A DNA stretch of 17,464 bases, from the IMG/VR virus record IMGVR_UViG_2778261165_000010; one strand, given 5' to 3'. Numbering within the stretch: position 1 is the stretch's first letter; every line of letters begins with the position of its first letter. This document shows positions 4,329-14,652 of the stretch, piece after piece. The notes under the pieces are model-generated. The model did not search any database. It was not told the origin of the DNA and saw only the letters and a list, made by a program, of their open reading frames with translations. Source of the stretch: a virus. Its lineage: Duplodnaviria; Heunggongvirae; Uroviricota; Caudoviricetes. Both the position numbers and the translations under genes were made by a program.

Positions 4329-4705
4329 TTGTAAGCCTGTAAAACACCATGAAAAGCGTTGGCATACACGCCAGTTGGCGCTTGTTGTGAATGACCGTTT
4401 TCAAGAGCCTCTGCATAAGGAAGGTTATTCTGGATATAAATAACTCCGTAATTTGCAGCTTTCGAAATAACCCCGATCCCACGCTGAACAGCAATCGTAC
4501 CGTTCGGATCCACGTTATCAGATATACCAAAATCGGGATGCTGTAACGACACCAGGTTGTTATTTCTGAAACGTCCGGTATCAACCGGAGCAGCAATATC
4601 AATAGCAGTAAGAATCTGAATAGCGATGTAGCGAATCTTCAGCCCTACATCTTCCTCAATCATCCCGGCAAATATTGACGGTTCTATATCCCATGCCTTT
4701 GCCAT
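4325..4705 (-). CDS. HK97 gp10-like tail completion protein
   Basis: 126 aa containing a PVDTGRFRNN motif characteristic of the HK97 gp10 family; abuts the upstream gene. Confidence 0.65.
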   Translation of the reverse strand: MAKAWDIEPSIFAGMIEEDVGLKIRYIAIQILTAIDIAAPVDTGRFRNNNLVSLQHPDFGISDNVDPNGTIAVQRGIGVISKAANYGVIYIQNNLPYAEALENGHSQQAPTGVYANAFHGVLQAYK

Positions 4706-5089
4706 TTACGCTCTCCTTAACTGGATAGAGTAAACTGATGCGGAAGGATCTACACTTGCTGTAATTACCTCGTATCGTTGTAACTGCCTTGATACAGGAT
4801 CATAAATCTCAATAATATGGTCGACAGCTGGTTTATCCGTAACCTCGCATACCAGAGCGGTTAATTTAAGGTCACCATGCAAAATATTAATCCCATCAAT
4901 TCTGCCCAGCTTATAACGTGTCAACACGCCTCGCCCGGTATAGATTGCGGTGGATTCGCCGCCAGTTTCCGTCACAGGATCCCAGTGCCGGTGCGTAACG
5001 TAAGAACCAGAAAAATCACTCACGGCGTCCGCTAAATCCTCATCAAAAGCAGCGGCAACCTCTGACTGAATCTCTTCACGAAGCCCCAT
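4706..5089 (-). CDS. head closure / head-tail joining protein (putative)
   Basis: 127-aa ORF whose ATG (5089..5087) overlaps the upstream stop as TAATG. Called by synteny between adaptor and tail completion genes. Confidence 0.45.
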   Translation of the reverse strand: MGLREEIQSEVAAAFDEDLADAVSDFSGSYVTHRHWDPVTETGGESTAIYTGRGVLTRYKLGRIDGINILHGDLKLTALVCEVTDKPAVDHIIEIYDPVSRQLQRYEVITASVDPSASVYSIQLRRA

Positions 5090-5483
5090 TATCCCCCCCT
5101 CACAACCCTGACTTGTGAGCGACTAAGTCCGTACGGTTTCAGCAGTGCTATCGCAAGCTGTAAATCGGGTTCAAGCAATGCAGTGCTGTTTGCTGGCAAC
5201 TCAGAAAATGATTTCGATACACTGACCCCGTCAGCCGACACGGCTTTACTGATAACAACGCCAGAATCATTTTTCTGCTGAAACAACTTACCGAATGAGG
5301 CAATTCTGGCTGCATATGCTCCCGCAAGTTTTACCTCTTCCGGAATACGGGATGGGTTAATTTTCAGGTTGAGCCATTAAGCCAGGCATTAGCCATTAAA
5401 ACAGCTTTATTTTTAGCGTTCTCACTCGTCCAGGCGTTCCCAAACGCATTATCAACGTCATCACAGGTCACGTAAGTGATCAT
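5089..5483 (-). pseudogene. head-tail adaptor/connector gene interrupted by a frameshift
   Basis: ATG at 5483 with AGGAG 6 nt upstream opens a frame (MITYVTCDDVDNAFGNAWTSENAKNKAVLMANAWLNGST) that stops at 5364. A second frame, open from 5376 to 5089, continues (WLNLKINPSRIPEEVKLAGAYAARIASFGK...VRVVRGG). The two overlap by about 12 nt and differ by -1. No slippery heptamer is present. Confidence 0.55.
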
Positions 5484-5705: not shown

Positions 5706-6845
5706 TTAACCAAGAATCAGACAACCATGTGCCGGCTTCACTGATGAAACACCCCATGCCAGTCCAACTTCATAGCGCACCTGGCGATACTGACGATACA
5801 GTGCAATCTGGAACGTAATCCCTGAAATCGGGTCCGTAACATTCATTACATCATCAGCATTATCGCCACCTTCCGGCATTGCCGGAGTACGGGATGCCAG
5901 CAGAAACGCGTTGCGATCAAACGCCATATTTGCCGTAAAGGCCCCAACAACTGTGATGGCAGTATCATCGGCCAGATCCTGACGCAGTCCGGGCGCTGCA
6001 AGAGTAATCAGATTGCTGGTCGCTGCTGCCACAACATACTGATTCGGATCACCAGCGAACGTAACAATCTGACCTGCAGAAATACTCCCCGAACCAGTAT
6101 CAATGGAAATAAGAACATCGCCTTCTTTTTTCTCTCCATTCACGAGATAACCAGTTGCAGCAACCTTTGGCGCTCGTTTCACACCTGCCGAACTGTGAAT
6201 ATTGAATCCCTCCAGACACCCCAACACGCCCTCACGCAGTAGCTGTTCAGTGCCGGATTCATTCACTTTAAACAATACAGACTGTTTTCCGCGCAAATTA
6301 GCAATGGCAGTGGAGCCAAGCACCATCTGCAGATCGGTTGTCGGTGCGCCGTTATCCTCCAGAACCTGACGAGCCAGAGCAGCATCAGAAAGATCATCTT
6401 TAACACCAAACGGCGTTGTCCCTGCGGTTCCCACGGCGCGGGAAGCACCGAAATACAACGCACCAAGATCAGCCTCAACCTCGTTTGCAAGGGCGCGAAA
6501 AGCCTGCTTGAACTGATCAGCCAGAATGGTGTTGTAAGTCCCTGAAGGGCCAAGAGCCAGTTGTTCTTCACCATTCCATTTAACCGGTGCCATTTTGGAT
6601 TTAGTAATTTTTACATCAACAGTGCCAATATTTTGATCACCGGTATTCGGAGCTGACGGCCCCGGTACGATATCTTCGGTTTTCGCCTCAGGCGCAACTG
6701 GCGCGGTTACCGTCTGATCTTTTGCTGCGGCGTCAGCTTTTGCGTTTTTTGCTACCGCAGGGATAAAACCTACCTGCTCACGGGATACAACATCCAGGGC
6801 GGTATAAATAGTCGGGATCAACCCGGTCAGGGTATTTCCAGCCAT
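5706..6845 (-). CDS. major capsid protein
   Basis: ATG at 6845 with AAGGAA ribosome-binding site (MAGNTLTGLIPTIYTAL..). About 380 aa, directly after the scaffold gene and followed by a strong terminator. The track ORF extends to 6938 from a non-ATG start. Confidence 0.8.
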   Translation of the reverse strand: MAGNTLTGLIPTIYTALDVVSREQVGFIPAVAKNAKADAAAKDQTVTAPVAPEAKTEDIVPGPSAPNTGDQNIGTVDVKITKSKMAPVKWNGEEQLALGPSGTYNTILADQFKQAFRALANEVEADLGALYFGASRAVGTAGTTPFGVKDDLSDAALARQVLEDNGAPTTDLQMVLGSTAIANLRGKQSVLFKVNESGTEQLLREGVLGCLEGFNIHSSAGVKRAPKVAATGYLVNGEKKEGDVLISIDTGSGSISAGQIVTFAGDPNQYVVAAATSNLITLAAPGLRQDLADDTAITVVGAFTANMAFDRNAFLLASRTPAMPEGGDNADDVMNVTDPISGITFQIALYRQYRQVRYEVGLAWGVSSVKPAHGCLILG

Positions 6846-6943
6846 AATTAAATATTCCTTAAAAATTTGCGTAATTGTGAATAGATGGAGTAATGAGCTA
6901 TCCAGCCCTGACACCAGCTCCCATCCGGAAGCTGACAAATGTG

Positions 6944-7708
6944 TTAATCAACGATTGTGATACCGTCTTTCAATGCGTTTTGCTTACCTGCAACATCCAG
7001 TGCATCAAAAGCAGAGCGTTTCATCGTTTTCTGACCAATATCATGCTGTGTCGGACGGGAGCCGCCGCCATTGTTGCCACTGGCTTTCAGGATGTAGTCT
7101 TTCTGAGGGTAATTTTCGACAAGGAACTCCAGCGCCTCATCAAACTGCGCCAGTTCGCCAGGCTTCGCGCGGGAATAAATTTTGTTGCCGGAAGCGTCAT
7201 AAGCAACGATCCTCCCTTCTTCCACTTTGAATGCCTGCCCGAAGCGGGCTTGTAATAAATCTGCCGGGATCGCAATTTTATCGGCAATATATTTTGAACC
7301 CGCAAAACTACCGCCAATCATAGAATCGTAAAGCTGCTTCTCCAGCATCTGAGAGCGTTGCTTTTCTTCATCTAATTGCTGCTGAAAATTTTTCGTAATT
7401 TCTGCCTTAACCTGGTCAACCTGTCCCGCATCGAGCAGCTTTTTCTGGTCGATTTTTGACAGCATTTCCAGTGCCTCGATCGCCTTCTTCGGGTCTTCGA
7501 TAGCGGCAAACTTAGCCAGTTTTTCCTCTGCAGCTTCTTTAGCCAGGCGATGATTTTTTGCCTCGCCATTAAGCTCTGTAATTTTTTTTGTCGCCAGCGG
7601 TGCATCGAAGCCAATTTCTTTACCATCGTCGTGCACATAAACTGGCAGGCCAGCAGTATCAATTTCTGCGTATTGTTTTCCGTTAATCTCGACCGTTTTC
7701 AGTTTCAT
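6944..7708 (-). CDS. scaffolding protein (putative)
   Basis: ATG at 7708 (MKLKTVEINGKQ..). Charged, coiled-coil-rich 254-aa protein between the head morphogenesis and capsid genes. The track start at 7780 would run through the terminator hairpin. Confidence 0.55.
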   Translation of the reverse strand: MKLKTVEINGKQYAEIDTAGLPVYVHDDGKEIGFDAPLATKKITELNGEAKNHRLAKEAAEEKLAKFAAIEDPKKAIEALEMLSKIDQKKLLDAGQVDQVKAEITKNFQQQLDEEKQRSQMLEKQLYDSMIGGSFAGSKYIADKIAIPADLLQARFGQAFKVEEGRIVAYDASGNKIYSRAKPGELAQFDEALEFLVENYPQKDYILKASGNNGGGSRPTQHDIGQKTMKRSAFDALDVAGKQNALKDGITIVD

Positions 7709-12697: not shown

Positions 12698-12949
12698 TTA
12701 GTCCTGATTTTTATCCACCCTGAGTAGTTCGCGCAGAGCAAAGGCATCCCCTTTTCTGGCAAGCTTAAACAATGCCGCTCGTAACTCGGCTTCACCTTTC
12801 GCTCTGCCCTTACGGATGGCCGCATAAAAATCTGTCATTGCTTCCCGATTTTCTTTCAGTCGGTTCAGATCAACATCCAGAACGTCAGCGATTTGTTGTG
12901 CAGTCATCCGGCACGCTGCCAGAGACTCGACTTTCGAATACGGAATCAT
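12698..12949 (-). CDS. small hypothetical protein (83 aa), possible HTH DNA-binding protein
   Basis: ATG at 12949 with GGGGGTGA upstream; stop 3 nt before the small terminase ATG. Contains MTAQQIADVLDVDLNRL, which looks HTH-like. Overlaps the 3' end of the upstream gene by 65 nt. Confidence 0.5.
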   Translation of the reverse strand: MIPYSKVESLAACRMTAQQIADVLDVDLNRLKENREAMTDFYAAIRKGRAKGEAELRAALFKLARKGDAFALRELLRVDKNQD

Positions 12950-13817
12950 TTGTCACCCCCATTGATATGCAGGGTGTCTTCTTCCTGTATTTTTCGTGAA
13001 GGATTTTTACTGCAGCGTTGTTCCAGGTGACCTGATGGTGAATGCGTTTATGGCTGGCACCCATCAGTGAGATTTTTACGCACGACGGCGCATACATGAC
13101 GGAGTAAAAACTTTTAACGTAGGTTCCGGAATCCAGATACAGCTCGGTCATTCCGCCGCTGTTTTTCTGCGTCTGTTTCTGCCCTAACTGGACAGCACCG
13201 ATCGTCATAAACAATTCACCACAGCGACCGAGATTCGTGTACGTATTCACATCCTCGTTAATGCGCCCCATGAATGAGAACGGTCGATCAACCGAACAGA
13301 TAAAGCTGTTCATTGCCTTGCGTTTCACCCACGAAGCATGGCCGCCATTGTCACCAAGAAAATCCCCGCCCTGCGACATAGCGATGGAAAGAGCAGGTAT
13401 TGATTCGTAGTACGCCAGCATTTCAGAAAGGATCGCATCCAGTTTCCTTATCGGAAAATAGGCCTGGTCATAGTTGCGATCCACCCGAAACTGGAACTCG
13501 TGATAATCATCATCGAGCTGAATGAAGTATTTACACCCGACCAGTTTTGCCAGGTCGAAACAGGCATTACGGGCGTAAAAAATTGAGCGGCGGTCACAGA
13601 AATTATCGGCTTCGTCAAAACGACTGGCGATATCGGCTTTGGAAAACACCAGCACCTGTTCACCAAATTCAGCCATGTACTGATTTCGTGTCTTATCTTC
13701 ATCATCAACAACGATAAAAATTTTCCCGGTATAGCCAGCACGACGCAACGTCCGGTAAGTCAGAACTTTGTCCGGTCGCCCGTGAGTCAGAATAAAGGCG
13801 CAAAAATCATCACGCAT
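12885..13817 (-). CDS. hypothetical protein with GT-A-like glycosyltransferase features
   Basis: ATG at 13817 directly after a GGAGGAGGAGG ribosome-binding site, overlapping the upstream stop by 8 nt. N-terminus CAFILTHGRPDKVLTYRTLRRAGYTGKIFIVVDDED resembles the GT-A beta1-alpha1-beta2 'VVDDxx' pattern. A DxD-like IQLDDDYHE lies about 90 residues further on. No transmembrane segments. Confidence 0.45.
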   Translation of the reverse strand: MRDDFCAFILTHGRPDKVLTYRTLRRAGYTGKIFIVVDDEDKTRNQYMAEFGEQVLVFSKADIASRFDEADNFCDRRSIFYARNACFDLAKLVGCKYFIQLDDDYHEFQFRVDRNYDQAYFPIRKLDAILSEMLAYYESIPALSIAMSQGGDFLGDNGGHASWVKRKAMNSFICSVDRPFSFMGRINEDVNTYTNLGRCGELFMTIGAVQLGQKQTQKNSGGMTELYLDSGTYVKSFYSVMYAPSCVKISLMGASHKRIHHQVTWNNAAVKILHEKYRKKTPCISMGVTNDSVFESRVSGSVPDDCTTNR

Positions 13818-14601
13818 ATTCCTCCTCCTCACCACCATGCATGATCTCCACCATGCGCTGCGTCATCCGGACAAATCCATTTTCAATAGCCTGCTGATAA
13901 TCAATGATCACCAGCGCCGACTCCTCGAAAAAACACTGAATTTCAGAGGGGGCGTGAGCGTAATAGTCCGCAATTCTGCTGAAATTAAACACCGTGTGAC
14001 GTTCTGCCGCACACAGGAGGAATTTCTCAATATCAGGCTCAAGGGACGCCGAACGTATCCGGCTGATCAGCTCCTGAGTTTTCGTATCGTCGTACAGTTC
14101 ACTGATATCCGGTTTACCGCCCGACGGCTCATAAACAGGCGTATCAATTTTCGTCGTATACGGCTCCTCCTCATTTCCTGTACCGGGCAAAACATCCGTC
14201 AACAGTTCATCAATTTCTGTCGGGATGAAGCCTGTCAGGGAGACATCAAAATCAGCATTGATTAGGTCCGACAGCTCCATCCGCAACAGATCTTCATCCC
14301 AGCCAGCATTCATCGGCAGGCGATTATCTGCCAGGCGGTACGCCTTTTTCTGCTCATCCGTCAGGCCAGACAGAACAATGACCGGAACAGAATCCATTTT
14401 GAGCATTTCAGCCGCCATAACACGACCGTGACCCGCAATAATTTCGCCCTTTTCGTCAATCAGCACCGGATTAGTCCAGCCGAATTGCTTAATACTTTCT
14501 ACCAGTTGTGCCACCTGCTCAGGGCTGTGCGTCCTGGCGTTGTGCGCATACGGTGACAATTCTTGTAATGGGCGATAGACTATCTTTAATTTCTCGCTCA
14601 T
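13810..14601 (-). CDS. ParB N-terminal domain (ParB/Srx-like) protein
   Basis: ATG at 14601 with AAGG upstream. N-terminal KLKIVYRPLQELSPYAHNARTHSPEQVAQLVESIKQFGWTNPVLIDEKGEIIAGHGRVMAA matches the ParB/sulfiredoxin fold, with GHGR in place of the GERR arginine patch. C-terminal 170 aa unassigned; acidic tail GGEEEEYA. Confidence 0.7.
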   Translation of the reverse strand: MSEKLKIVYRPLQELSPYAHNARTHSPEQVAQLVESIKQFGWTNPVLIDEKGEIIAGHGRVMAAEMLKMDSVPVIVLSGLTDEQKKAYRLADNRLPMNAGWDEDLLRMELSDLINADFDVSLTGFIPTEIDELLTDVLPGTGNEEEPYTTKIDTPVYEPSGGKPDISELYDDTKTQELISRIRSASLEPDIEKFLLCAAERHTVFNFSRIADYYAHAPSEIQCFFEESALVIIDYQQAIENGFVRMTQRMVEIMHGGEEEEYA

Positions 14602-14617: not shown

Positions 14618-14652
14618 AATAAAACGCACCCCAGCAGCCAGTGCTACTGGGG
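14618..14652 (-). terminator. intrinsic terminator downstream of trkG
   Basis: On the minus strand: CCCCAGTAG-CACTGG-CTGCTGGGG hairpin (plus 14629..14652) followed by TGCGTTTTATTC, about 85 nt after the trkG stop and 17 nt before the ParB-like start. Confidence 0.6.

What the first reader, a model, noticed from the sequence alone, without database searches (positions are those of the whole stretch)
12885..14601. ParB-like / GT-A-like gene pair between the lysis cassette and the terminase: candidate uncharacterised accessory module
Two translationally coupled genes sit in the moron slot between Rz/trkG and the small terminase. The first has a ParB/Srx N-terminal domain with a degenerate arginine patch (GHGR instead of GERR) and 170 residues of unassigned sequence. 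The second is a soluble protein whose N-terminus and downstream DDD motif fit a GT-A nucleotide-sugar transferase fold. Neither is needed for lambdoid morphogenesis or lysis. A soluble glycosyltransferase-like enzyme paired with a ParB-fold NTP-binding or nuclease protein next to the packaging genes could modify DNA or virion proteins, or act in counter-defence. I do not recall a characterised function for this pair; from memory, E. coli K-12 Rac carries only truncated remnants here (ynaK, ydaY).
Basis: partly seen in the sequence, partly recalled or inferred. Interest (0 to 1): 0.72.

Follow-up and report, generated by a model that had tools for sequence, protein, structure and literature searches.

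The report
Conserved phage ParB–glycosyltransferase gene pair
Two overlapping late genes of an intact E. coli Rac prophage encode a DNA-type sugar transferase and its obligate partner protein; the pair is widespread in viruses just upstream of the DNA-packaging genes, probably adds sugars to phage DNA, but lacks the enzymes that normally prepare DNA for such sugars.

Summary
Two translationally coupled minus-strand genes (14601-13810 and 13817-12885) lie between trkG and the terminase genes of a full-length Rac prophage.

- **Gene 2:** a GT-A glycosyltransferase of Pfam family PF20691 (TAGT, E 8e-35). Its R...DDD...ED active-site residues are 99-100% conserved.
- **Gene 1:** a ParB/Srx N-domain of the type fused to phage DNA methyltransferases, followed by a C-terminal domain (CTD) that matches no Pfam family or solved structure.

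Pairing was complete in both directions. All 80 viral loci seeded with TAGT had the partner upstream, and all 80 seeded with the CTD had TAGT downstream. In 50,697 phage genomes the same 28 records hold both genes; their hosts span Proteobacteria, Firmicutes, Actinobacteria and haloarchaea. Some Vibrio phages keep only CTD plus TAGT.

The pair nearly always precedes terminases, which belong to at least five unrelated families. Relatives add a second TAGT, a sugar epimerase, a UDP-galactopyranose mutase or a radical SAM enzyme.

No TET-type or thymidylate-synthase-type enzyme accompanies the pair. The most likely function is late DNA glycosylation before packaging, but the acceptor is unknown. 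I class it as a new variant of a known kind. It can be tested directly in E. coli.

The parts
13810..14601 (-). Gene 1 (full-length ynaK), 263 aa plus stop: ParB/Srx N-domain, acidic helical middle, conserved linker motif, and the C-terminal domain (CTD) that always accompanies TAGT
   Evidence: ORF; Pfam ParB_N and PHROG 620; directly upstream of TAGT in 80 of 80 TAGT-seeded loci; net charge about -25, pI 4.5
14194..14601 (-). ParB/Srx N-domain plus helical middle segment (residues 1-136): the same module that forms the N-terminus of many phage DNA methyltransferases
   Evidence: Foldseek hits to Noc, ParB, PadC and KorB N-domains at E about 1e-6; PHROG 498 DNA methyltransferase E 1e-50; PADLOC MTase_II N-terminus E 2e-38; tblastn finds 426 phage records, most of those listed annotated as DNA methyltransferases
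14422..14433 (-). GHGR motif (residues 57-60), the counterpart of the GERR nucleotide-binding box of ParB
   Evidence: Translation; alignment to Spo0J. Among 129 unique homologues: AGHGR 63, AGHTR 15, AGNGT 12. G57 is 100% conserved, the arginine is not
14125..14160 (-). Conserved linear motif YTTKIDTPVYEP (residues 148-159) in a segment predicted with low confidence; a candidate TAGT-docking or acceptor site
   Evidence: Translation; Y148 100%, P155 96% and Y157 99% conserved over 135 unique sequences; pLDDT below 50 for residues 137-169
13813..14175 (-). CTD (residues 143-263), an uncharacterised domain and the obligate TAGT partner. Invariant residues: R201, H202, Y214, D234
   Evidence: No significant Pfam or PDB sequence match; 80 of 80 CTD-seeded loci have TAGT downstream; occurs without the ParB N-domain in Vibrio phages; 1189 cluster representatives in the 50% library; conservation figures
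12885..13817 (-). Gene 2: TAGT-family GT-A glycosyltransferase, 310 aa plus stop (the ORF could extend to 13838)
13506..13514 (-). DDD (DxD-type) metal and nucleotide-sugar binding motif, residues 102-104 of the 310-aa protein
   Evidence: Translation; 99-100% conserved in 147 unique homologues; part of the R...DDD...EDY/F signature of DNA GT-A enzymes and JGT
13251..13256 (-). ED of the NEDVNTY motif (residues 188-189), a candidate catalytic acid/base region
   Evidence: Translation; E188 92% and D189 100% conserved
13569..13571 (-). Arg83, the 'R' of the R...DDD...ED signature
   Evidence: Translation; 100% conserved
13810..13832 (-). Coupling junction: GAGGAGGAGG Shine-Dalgarno sequence inside the end of gene 1, and ATGCGTGA where the start of gene 2 overlaps the stop of gene 1
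   Evidence: Sequence read directly
14629..14652 (-). Terminator-like hairpin (10-bp stem, 7 G-C pairs, T-rich tail) between the trkG stop and the start of gene 1; it may insulate the pair from trkG transcription in the lysogen
   Evidence: Pattern scan and sequence; a consensus match only, function not shown
12698..12949 (-). Flanking 83-aa ORF overlapping the 3' end of gene 2 by 65 nt; resembles part of a small terminase subunit. A packaging gene, not part of the pair
   Evidence: PHROG 309 E 8e-23; conserved downstream of the pair in the enterobacterial loci that retain intact sequence downstream of TAGT (within L002-L065) but absent from distant ones

Best explanation
The two genes form a conserved, late-expressed viral module for glycosylating DNA.

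Gene 2 (TAGT) is the catalytic GT-A enzyme. It would transfer a sugar from a nucleotide-sugar donor.

Gene 1 supplies an obligate partner domain, the CTD. I infer that the CTD binds TAGT and provides acceptor recognition or part of the chemistry. In most lineages the CTD is tethered to a ParB/Srx N-domain of the kind phages also fuse to DNA methyltransferases. That domain presumably brings the enzyme to DNA or to the replication and packaging site.

The pair is made together by translational coupling at the head of the packaging operon, and would modify progeny DNA just before it is packaged. The likely benefit is protection from host nucleases or other defences in the next host.

Shown here:
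- the fold, family and conserved active site of TAGT;
- the strict two-way gene linkage;
- the exchange of CTD and methyltransferase on the same N-terminal module;
- the position next to terminases;
- the nucleotide-sugar enzymes that join the pair in relatives;
- the lack of any annotated enzyme that makes hydroxymethyl bases.

Inferred, not shown:
- that the two proteins form a complex;
- that DNA is the acceptor;
- which atom receives the sugar;
- the counter-defence role.
For: **TAGT family, fold and active site**
- Pfam PF20691 at 121 bits against a cut-off of 27.5.
- R83, DDD102-104 and D189 are 99-100% conserved over 147 unique sequences. This matches the R...DDD...ED signature reported for DNA-modifying phage GT-A enzymes and JGT.
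- Characterised family members act on DNA.

**Linkage**
- 80 of 80 TAGT-seeded loci have the ParB-CTD gene abutting upstream.
- 80 of 80 CTD-seeded loci have TAGT downstream: 79 abutting, one 550 bp away.
- The 28 phage records with the CTD are exactly the 28 records with TAGT at 39% identity or more.
- Vibrio phages keep CTD plus TAGT without the ParB N-domain.

**Link to DNA**
- Residues 1-137 are homologous, at up to 57% identity, to the N-termini of phage DNA methyltransferases.
- One such fusion sits in the same position upstream of the terminase.
- In the Vibrio phage the pair lies among primase, ligase and nuclease genes.

**Real sugar chemistry**
- Relatives add an NAD epimerase/dehydratase, a UDP-galactopyranose mutase, a radical SAM enzyme, or second and third TAGT copies directly after TAGT.

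**Timing**
- ATGCGTGA overlap with a strong Shine-Dalgarno sequence.
- The pair lies upstream of terminases of at least five Pfam families.
Against: - **No acceptor pathway:** the complete Rac prophage, phage phi jlb1 and phage c5 have no annotated TET/JBP, thymidylate-synthase-like hydroxymethylase or DNA methyltransferase. None appears among the common neighbour families. Every characterised TAGT-type enzyme needs a hydroxymethyl base or a sugar already attached to one.
- **Acidic partner:** it has pI 4.0-4.7 and lacks the helix-turn-helix domain of true ParB proteins, so it is not an obvious DNA binder.
- **Variable ParB N-domain:** its nucleotide-binding arginine is not universal, and the domain is absent in some lineages.
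- **Weak models:** the CTD and the C-terminal third of TAGT were predicted with low confidence, and no complex could be modelled.
- **Dispensable:** the module is often deleted or broken in E. coli prophages and in Lactobacillus delbrueckii phages, so the phage can do without it.
- **No direct data:** no experimental evidence of modified DNA in any carrier phage was found.
Confidence: 0.5

Rival explanations
1. Protein glycosylation. TAGT glycosylates a protein rather than DNA. The most specific version is that it glycosylates its own partner on the invariant tyrosines of the YxxKxxxPxYEP motif, as glycogenin does to itself, with tandem TAGT copies extending the chain. Alternatively it glycosylates terminase or virion proteins made from the same operon.
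For: - The motif has Y148 and Y157 at 99-100% conservation and lies in a segment predicted as flexible.
- No DNA acceptor pathway is present.
- The partner is acidic, unlike a DNA binder.
- The pair is co-expressed with structural genes.
Against: - Sequence family membership points to DNA glycosyltransferases.
- The N-terminal module is shared with DNA methyltransferases.
- The pair occurs with unrelated capsid and terminase types and, in Vibrio phages, among replication genes. That argues against one specific virion target.
Confidence: 0.15
2. Packaging accessory. The ParB-like protein is a nuclease or NTPase that helps the terminase recognise or cut phage DNA, and the transferase is an unrelated passenger.
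For: - The position immediately upstream of terminase genes is nearly universal.
- In phage c5 the pair lies directly after the cos site.
- ParB-like N-domain proteins without the CTD also sit upstream of terminases.
Against: - The partner is linked to TAGT in 160 of 160 loci, but to at least five non-homologous terminase families.
- The CTD, not the ParB N-domain, is the invariant part.
- In Vibrio phages and HHTV-2 the pair is not adjacent to the terminase.
- Phages with broken copies are still isolated as viable phages.
Confidence: 0.08
3. Small-molecule target. The pair glycosylates a nucleotide or nucleotide-derived molecule rather than polymeric DNA. Examples are a nucleoside triphosphate held by the ParB/Srx pocket, or a host immune signalling nucleotide, as a counter-defence.
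For: - ParB/Srx folds bind CTP or ATP and include small-molecule kinases (Foldseek hits to Srx and free serine kinase).
- The radical SAM enzyme joined to the pair in many relatives most resembles MoaA-like and viperin-like enzymes, which act on nucleoside triphosphates. The similarity is far below family cut-offs.
- No DNA acceptor pathway is present.
Against: - The ParB N-domain is dispensable in some lineages and its arginine box is degenerate.
- The radical SAM enzyme is absent from the E. coli module.
- The other genes in the same slot (epimerase, UDP-galactopyranose mutase, extra TAGT copies) suggest that it tailors the sugar donor instead.
- No match to known defence or counter-defence families.
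Confidence: 0.1
4. Lysogenic conversion. A prophage glycosyltransferase alters a cell-surface glycan, as TarP or the Gtr systems do.
Against: - The protein is soluble, with no membrane segments or flippase partners.
- It lies in the late operon behind a terminator-like hairpin.
- It is present in non-temperate phages such as c5 and the 191-kb Vibrio phages, and in an archaeal virus, whose hosts have unrelated envelopes.
Confidence: 0.03

Closest known systems
TET/5mYOX-associated phage GT-A DNA glycosyltransferases (Pfam PF20691, TAGT; Pyle et al., bioRxiv 10.1101/2023.12.21.572611)
   Same: - Same Pfam family and GT-A fold.
- Same R...DDD...ED active-site pattern.
- ParB-like neighbours, extra transferases and sugar epimerases also occur in those clusters.
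   Different: - Those enzymes act on 5hmC made by an adjacent methyltransferase plus dioxygenase. Here no such enzymes occur in the prophage or in small complete phage genomes.
- This subfamily has an obligate partner domain (CTD) and a fixed position before the terminase.
- The third residue of the last motif is V rather than Y/F.
T2/T6 beta-glucosyl-HMC-alpha-glucosyltransferase (the name PHROG 842 and many phage annotations give this protein)
   Same: Same Pfam and PHROG family. A soluble phage enzyme that uses a UDP-sugar.
   Different: - It adds a second glucose to DNA that is already glucosylated on hmC. Rac has no hmC pathway and no alpha- or beta-glucosyltransferase.
- tblastn from the Rac enzyme, and from an Aeromonas T4-like bridge sequence, did not list T2 or T6 among its hits. 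The annotation is therefore a family label, not a function.
JGT (base J glucosyltransferase) and GREB1 relatives
   Same: PGAP names the Rac protein 'GREB1-related'. JGT shares the GT-A fold and active-site signature with phage TAGT-type enzymes.
   Different: - JGT needs 5-hydroxymethyluracil made by JBP dioxygenases.
- I could not compare structures directly: the AlphaFold database library was unavailable.
Phage DNA methyltransferases with an N-terminal ParB-like domain (PHROG 498; PADLOC MTase_II)
   Same: - The first ~140 residues of gene 1 are homologous, at up to 57% identity.
- At least one such fusion occupies the same position upstream of the terminase.
   Different: The methyltransferase domain is replaced by the CTD, and the catalytic activity is supplied by a separate, translationally coupled glycosyltransferase.
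Chromosome and plasmid partition ParB, Noc, KorB (CTP-dependent DNA clamps)
   Same: The fold of the N-terminal domain (Foldseek E about 1e-6).
   Different: - GHGR instead of GERR.
- No helix-turn-helix DNA-binding domain and no C-terminal dimerisation domain.
- No ParA partner.
- Strongly acidic.

Membership tests
Pfam PF20691 TAGT (DNA-type GT-A glycosyltransferases) | Sequence match above the curated gathering score | tested here: met
   121 bits against a cut-off of 27.5, covering profile positions 4-205 of 205; PHROG 842 E 1e-103
Pfam PF20691 TAGT (DNA-type GT-A glycosyltransferases) | GT-A fold | tested here: met
Pfam PF20691 TAGT (DNA-type GT-A glycosyltransferases) | Active-site signature R...DDD...EDY/F, as reported for phage DNA GT-A enzymes and JGT | tested here: met
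   R83 100%, D102-D104 99-100%, E188 92% and D189 100% conserved in 147 unique sequences. The residue after ED is V, not Y/F.
Pfam PF20691 TAGT (DNA-type GT-A glycosyltransferases) | Genomic association with an enzyme that makes the acceptor (TET/JBP dioxygenase, or a thymidylate-synthase-like hydroxymethylase) | tested here: not met
   None annotated in the complete Rac prophage or in the whole genomes of phi jlb1 and c5. None among the 25 commonest neighbour families. The test rests on annotation and Pfam, so hidden remote homologues are not excluded.
Pfam PF20691 TAGT (DNA-type GT-A glycosyltransferases) | Sugar transfer to DNA | not testable with these tools
   Needs nucleoside mass spectrometry or an enzyme assay
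T2/T6 beta-glucosyl-HMC-alpha-glucosyltransferase (specific function) | Glucosyl-hmC substrate pathway (hmC synthesis plus alpha- or beta-glucosyltransferase) in the same genome | tested here: not met
   Absent from Rac
T2/T6 beta-glucosyl-HMC-alpha-glucosyltransferase (specific function) | Close sequence similarity to the T-even enzyme | tested here: not met
   tblastn did not list T2 or T6. Only Aeromonas T4-like phages appeared, at 23% identity and E 2e-4.
Partition-type ParB (CTPase DNA clamp) | ParB/Srx N-terminal fold | tested here: met
   Pfam ParB_N; Foldseek hits to Noc, ParB, PadC and KorB
Partition-type ParB (CTPase DNA clamp) | GERRxRA nucleotide-binding box | tested here: not met
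   GHGR in the window. Variants AGHTR and AGNGT are common, and the arginine is not universal.
Partition-type ParB (CTPase DNA clamp) | Helix-turn-helix DNA-binding domain and C-terminal dimerisation domain | tested here: not met
   No such Pfam hit. Residues after 136 match nothing significant in Pfam or in PDB sequences.
Partition-type ParB (CTPase DNA clamp) | ParA partner | tested here: not met
   No ParA-like gene is annotated in the 42-kb stretch of an identical prophage that covers the window region, nor in the remaining early region of that prophage
ParB-domain DNA methyltransferase fusions (PHROG 498; PADLOC MTase_II) | Homologous N-terminal ParB-like module | tested here: met
   E 1e-50; E 2e-38; 426 phage records
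ParB-domain DNA methyltransferase fusions (PHROG 498; PADLOC MTase_II) | Methyltransferase catalytic domain | tested here: not met
   No methyltransferase domain in gene 1. The matches stop at about residue 144.
Known anti-phage defence systems (PADLOC-DB 2.0) | Match of the transferase or the pair to a defence-system model | tested here: not met
   TAGT has no hit. Gene 1 hits only the N-terminus of a methyltransferase model.

The most novel reading that the evidence does not exclude
The CTD-TAGT complex glycosylates ordinary, unmodified DNA directly, with no hydroxymethyl-base precursor. The target could be a canonical base, the backbone or a DNA end. That would be a DNA modification chemistry not yet described, present in lambdoid prophages of E. 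coli and in viruses of Firmicutes, Actinobacteria and haloarchaea. Lineage-specific epimerase, UDP-galactopyranose mutase, radical SAM and extra-transferase genes would then diversify the sugar.
Probability: 0.22. Interest if true: 0.9.

Novelty: new variant of a known kind. Interest (0 to 1): 0.62.

Why it matters
- **Scale:** the module is very common. The CTD alone has about 1,200 cluster representatives at 50% identity. A stretch covering at least 80% of the region is present in 867 of 5,426 complete E. coli genomes. Carrier phages infect hosts from four phyla, including archaea.
- **Open question:** a 2026 study lists 'solitary' TAGT homologues in 288 of 753 TAGT-encoding phage genomes as having undefined function.
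- **What this adds:**
  - This subfamily always comes with a specific, uncharacterised partner domain.
  - It has a fixed place before the packaging genes.
  - It has no visible way of making the hydroxymethyl acceptor.
- **If DNA is the target:** a new route to sugar-modified DNA would exist in ordinary temperate phages. That would affect restriction evasion, sequencing artefacts and phage host range.
- **Tractability:** E. coli K-12 naturally lacks the transferase, so it is a clean background for expressing the pair and reading out DNA nucleosides.
- **Annotation:** the common label 'beta-glucosyl-HMC-alpha-glucosyltransferase' is not justified for these genes.

Tried and rejected
- **Iyer et al. 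2013:** I tried to read the paper that defined TAGT (NAR gkt573), but it is not held. What it says about ParB neighbours could not be checked.
- **Literature searches:** combinations of TAGT, ParB, GREB1, ynaK and ydaY found no study of this pair.
- **PDB sequence search for TAGT:** no relatives.
- **CTD profile against PDB sequences and Pfam:** only chance-level matches.
- **Foldseek on the ParB-like model:** only the N-domain was assigned.
- **AlphaFold database search for JGT/GREB1:** the library was unavailable.
- **Bridge to the T2/T6 enzyme:** a search seeded with an Aeromonas T4-like homologue did not list T2 or T6 among its hits.
- **Rosetta-stone fusions:** none between CTD and TAGT among the top 150 CTD representatives.
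- **Radical SAM neighbour:** it could not be placed in any named family. All NCBIfam hits were far below cut-off, and the pVip similarity is limited to the radical SAM core.
- **Rejected: partition function.** There is no helix-turn-helix domain, no ParA partner, and the protein is acidic.
- **Rejected: the PHROG functional name,** for the reasons given under membership.
- **Rejected: ydaY as a transferase remnant**.
- **Not possible:** a complex prediction of the two proteins.
Full report
**What is in the window**

All long ORFs of the window lie on the minus strand. In order of transcription they are:
- lysozyme (17292-16795);
- Rz/Rz1 (16810-16334);
- trkG (16214-14739);
- a 263-aa ORF (14601-13810);
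- a 317-aa ORF (13838-12885);
- an 83-aa ORF (12949-12698);
- small terminase (12694-11600);
- large terminase (11628-10318);
- portal and downstream structural genes.

The DNA is 100% identical to E. coli chromosomes. There it forms part of a complete Rac prophage inserted at ttcA, with intR, xisR, recET, kilR and sieB. E. coli K-12 carries a deleted version in which trkG is followed by an 87-aa ynaK remnant, then ydaY and a tape-measure fragment. So ynaK is the stump of the first gene. The second gene is missing from K-12 altogether. ydaY is a tail-region gene, not a remnant of the transferase.

**Checking the observation**

The first protein reaches Pfam ParB_N above threshold. Its AlphaFold model matches the N-domains of Noc, ParB, PadC and KorB (E about 1e-6), and sulfiredoxin and free serine kinase more weakly. 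GHGR sits where ParB has GERR. Nothing after about residue 136 matches Pfam or PDB sequences at a significant level.

The functional start is almost certainly ATG 13817, not 13838. It follows GAGGAGGAGG and overlaps the upstream stop as ATGCGTGA, and database gene calls give 310 aa.

**The pair is one unit**

- I seeded a scan of IMG/VR with an alignment of the transferase. All 80 loci returned (57-100% identity) had a homologue of the first gene abutting upstream.
- I then seeded a scan with only the C-terminal domain (CTD, residues 143-263), using a Lactobacillus phage sequence as reference. All 80 loci had TAGT downstream: 79 abutting and one 550 bp away.
- Among 50,697 deposited phage genomes, the 28 records with the CTD are the same 28 that hold TAGT at 39% identity or more.
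  - They include Lactobacillus phages c5, phiLdb and phi jlb1, Nocardia phage NTR1, 191-kb Vibrio phages and the haloarchaeal virus HHTV-2.
- In the Vibrio phages, and in two metagenomic loci, the partner is the CTD alone, without the ParB N-domain.

Conservation follows the same order:

| Domain | Unique sequences | Columns at least 90% conserved | Notable residues |
|---|---|---|---|
| TAGT | 147 | 54 | R83, DDD102-104, D189 |
| CTD | 135 | 29 | Y148, Y157, R201, H202, Y214, D234 at 99-100% |
| ParB N-domain | 129 | 12 | the arginine of GHGR is not universal |

The CTD family has 1,189 representatives in a library clustered at 50% identity. The core of the system is therefore CTD plus TAGT, and the ParB N-domain is a frequent but optional addition.

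**What the ParB N-domain indicates**

Residues 1-137 are homologous to the N-termini of phage DNA methyltransferases:
- PHROG 498, E 1e-50;
- a PADLOC type II methyltransferase model, E 2e-38;
- 426 phage records by tblastn, most of those listed annotated as methyltransferases, at up to 57% identity.

In Verrucomicrobia phage P8625 such a fusion occupies the same place upstream of the terminase. The same N-terminal module is thus attached either to a DNA-modifying catalytic domain, or to the CTD that always accompanies a DNA-type glycosyltransferase. This is the strongest indirect argument that the pair works on DNA.

The protein is not a partition ParB. It has no helix-turn-helix domain and no ParA partner, its nucleotide box is degenerate, and it is strongly acidic (net charge about -25).

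**Position and accessory genes**

In ten divergent loci, and again in a census of 51 non-redundant loci, the genes after the pair are terminases and portals. The large terminases belong to at least five different Pfam families: Terminase_6N, Terminase_3, TerL_ATPase/nuclease, GpA and T7-like. Upstream lie the last early genes, such as SSB, RusA and HNH. The pair therefore heads the packaging operon whatever the packaging machinery. That fits a shared time of expression better than a specific interaction with the terminase.

In the window, a terminator-like hairpin (14652-14629) separates the pair from trkG.

Some relatives insert further genes directly after TAGT:
- a specific radical SAM family, in 34 of 80 CTD-seeded loci and in none of the TAGT-seeded (largely enterobacterial) loci;
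- an NAD-dependent sugar epimerase/dehydratase;
- a UDP-galactopyranose mutase;
- one or two additional TAGT paralogues.

These genes argue that the transferase really uses nucleotide sugars, and that the sugar or glycan varies between lineages. Diversification of that kind is already documented for phage DNA glycosylation.

**The unexplained part**

Characterised members of this family add sugar to 5-hydroxymethyl bases, or to a sugar already on them. I found no TET/JBP dioxygenase, thymidylate-synthase-like hydroxymethylase or DNA methyltransferase in:
- the complete Rac prophage;
- the complete 38-kb phi jlb1 and 32-kb c5 genomes;
- the common neighbour families.

This rests on annotation and Pfam scans, so remote homologues are not excluded. 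As it stands, the acceptor is unknown.

**Most likely mechanism**

I favour a late DNA-glycosylation module (confidence 0.5). TAGT would be the catalyst. The CTD would be an obligate subunit giving acceptor recognition or part of the chemistry. The ParB/Srx domain would be a tether to DNA.

The rivals are:
- protein glycosylation, most specifically of the partner's invariant tyrosines (0.15);
- glycosylation of a nucleotide or other small molecule (0.10);
- a packaging accessory role (0.08);
- surface-glycan conversion (0.03).

The evidence for and against each is set out in the rival-explanations section.

**Comparison with what is known**

- The transferase is a member of Pfam TAGT by sequence, fold and active site. 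It fails the contextual feature of that family, an adjacent enzyme that makes the acceptor.
- It is not the T2/T6 enzyme whose name it often carries.
- ParB-like neighbours of phage DNA glycosyltransferases have been noted statistically in a 2023 preprint. A 2026 paper flags solitary TAGT homologues as undefined.
- I found no description of the obligate CTD partner, of the exchange between CTD and methyltransferase domains, or of the fixed position before the terminase. However, I could not read the 2013 paper that defined the family.

I therefore rate it a new variant of a known kind, of moderate to high interest. It is very widespread, mechanistically unresolved, and easy to test in E. coli.

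Noticed in passing
L099:1167-2189, L101:9987-10943, L125:9210-10148, L131:7216-8133 and 30 further loci: One specific radical SAM family (CNNxCxYC cluster motif, about 306-341 aa, one member with a SPASM domain) abuts TAGT in 34 of 80 CTD-seeded viral loci. It is absent from all TAGT-seeded (largely enterobacterial) loci and from the window. It fits no named family; its similarity to MoaA, viperin and the tungsten-cofactor maturase lies far below their cut-offs.
   Followed up: partly
L101, L102, L131-L135, L141, L157, L159 (for example L131:5571-6419 and 6419-7264): Two or three tandem TAGT paralogues follow the CTD gene in some phages. The copy next to the CTD is the more divergent. This suggests stepwise building of a di- or trisaccharide.
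   Followed up: no
L094:5649-6725; L158:1638-2774: An NAD-dependent sugar epimerase/dehydratase, or a UDP-galactopyranose mutase, directly follows TAGT in some loci. This implies a dedicated supply of unusual nucleotide sugars, including a furanose.
   Followed up: partly
L083:3950-4369 and 4363-5379 (Vibrio phage phiKT1024); also L142 and L147: Here the partner is a 139-aa protein made of the CTD alone, with no ParB N-domain. In the Vibrio phage the pair lies among primase, ligase and nuclease genes rather than next to the terminase.
   Followed up: partly
window 12698-12949 (minus strand): An 83-aa ORF overlaps the last 65 nt of the transferase gene and resembles an internal part of a small terminase subunit (PHROG 309). 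Together with the 364-aa TerS it may form a split small terminase. The E. coli transferase carries a C-terminal extension of about 25 residues, absent in other genera, that covers this overlap.
   Followed up: partly
window 14629-14652 (minus strand): A terminator-like hairpin with a T-rich tail lies between the trkG stop and the start of the ParB-like gene. It could keep the pair silent in the lysogen while trkG is expressed.
   Followed up: no
Proteins P0004-P0045 and P0193-P0234; K-12 locus L174:4378-4981: Many E. coli database proteins are chimeras. They have a 97-100% identical N-terminal part of the ParB-like or TAGT protein fused to tail, Lom, NlpC/P60 or terminase fragments. This points to many independent deletions with end points inside these two genes, as in K-12 Rac.
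   Followed up: no
K-12 ynaK (the remnant corresponding roughly to window 14341-14601): A 2026 overexpression screen (PMC12924614) reports that the 87-aa ynaK remnant raises the MIC of six antibiotics 3- to 6-fold. No mechanism is known, and the relevance to the full-length protein is unclear.
   Followed up: no
window 13810-14601; homologues in L082, L084-L086: The ParB-like partners are unusually acidic (pI 4.0-4.7, net charge -18 to -53). The C-terminal region of TAGT (residues 216-285) is basic (pI 9.7). The charge pattern would suit a complex, or a DNA-mimicking role for the partner.
   Followed up: no
Lactobacillus phages Ld17, LL-Ku, Ld25A (hits H82-H87, H94-H95): Close relatives of phage c5 carry fragmented or truncated TAGT genes and no detectable CTD. 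The module therefore decays in some lineages of dairy phages.
   Followed up: no
L068:7111-8118: In one divergent locus a DNA methyltransferase (PHROG 67) lies between the pair and the large terminase. This is one of the few cases where the pair is accompanied by a methyltransferase.
   Followed up: no
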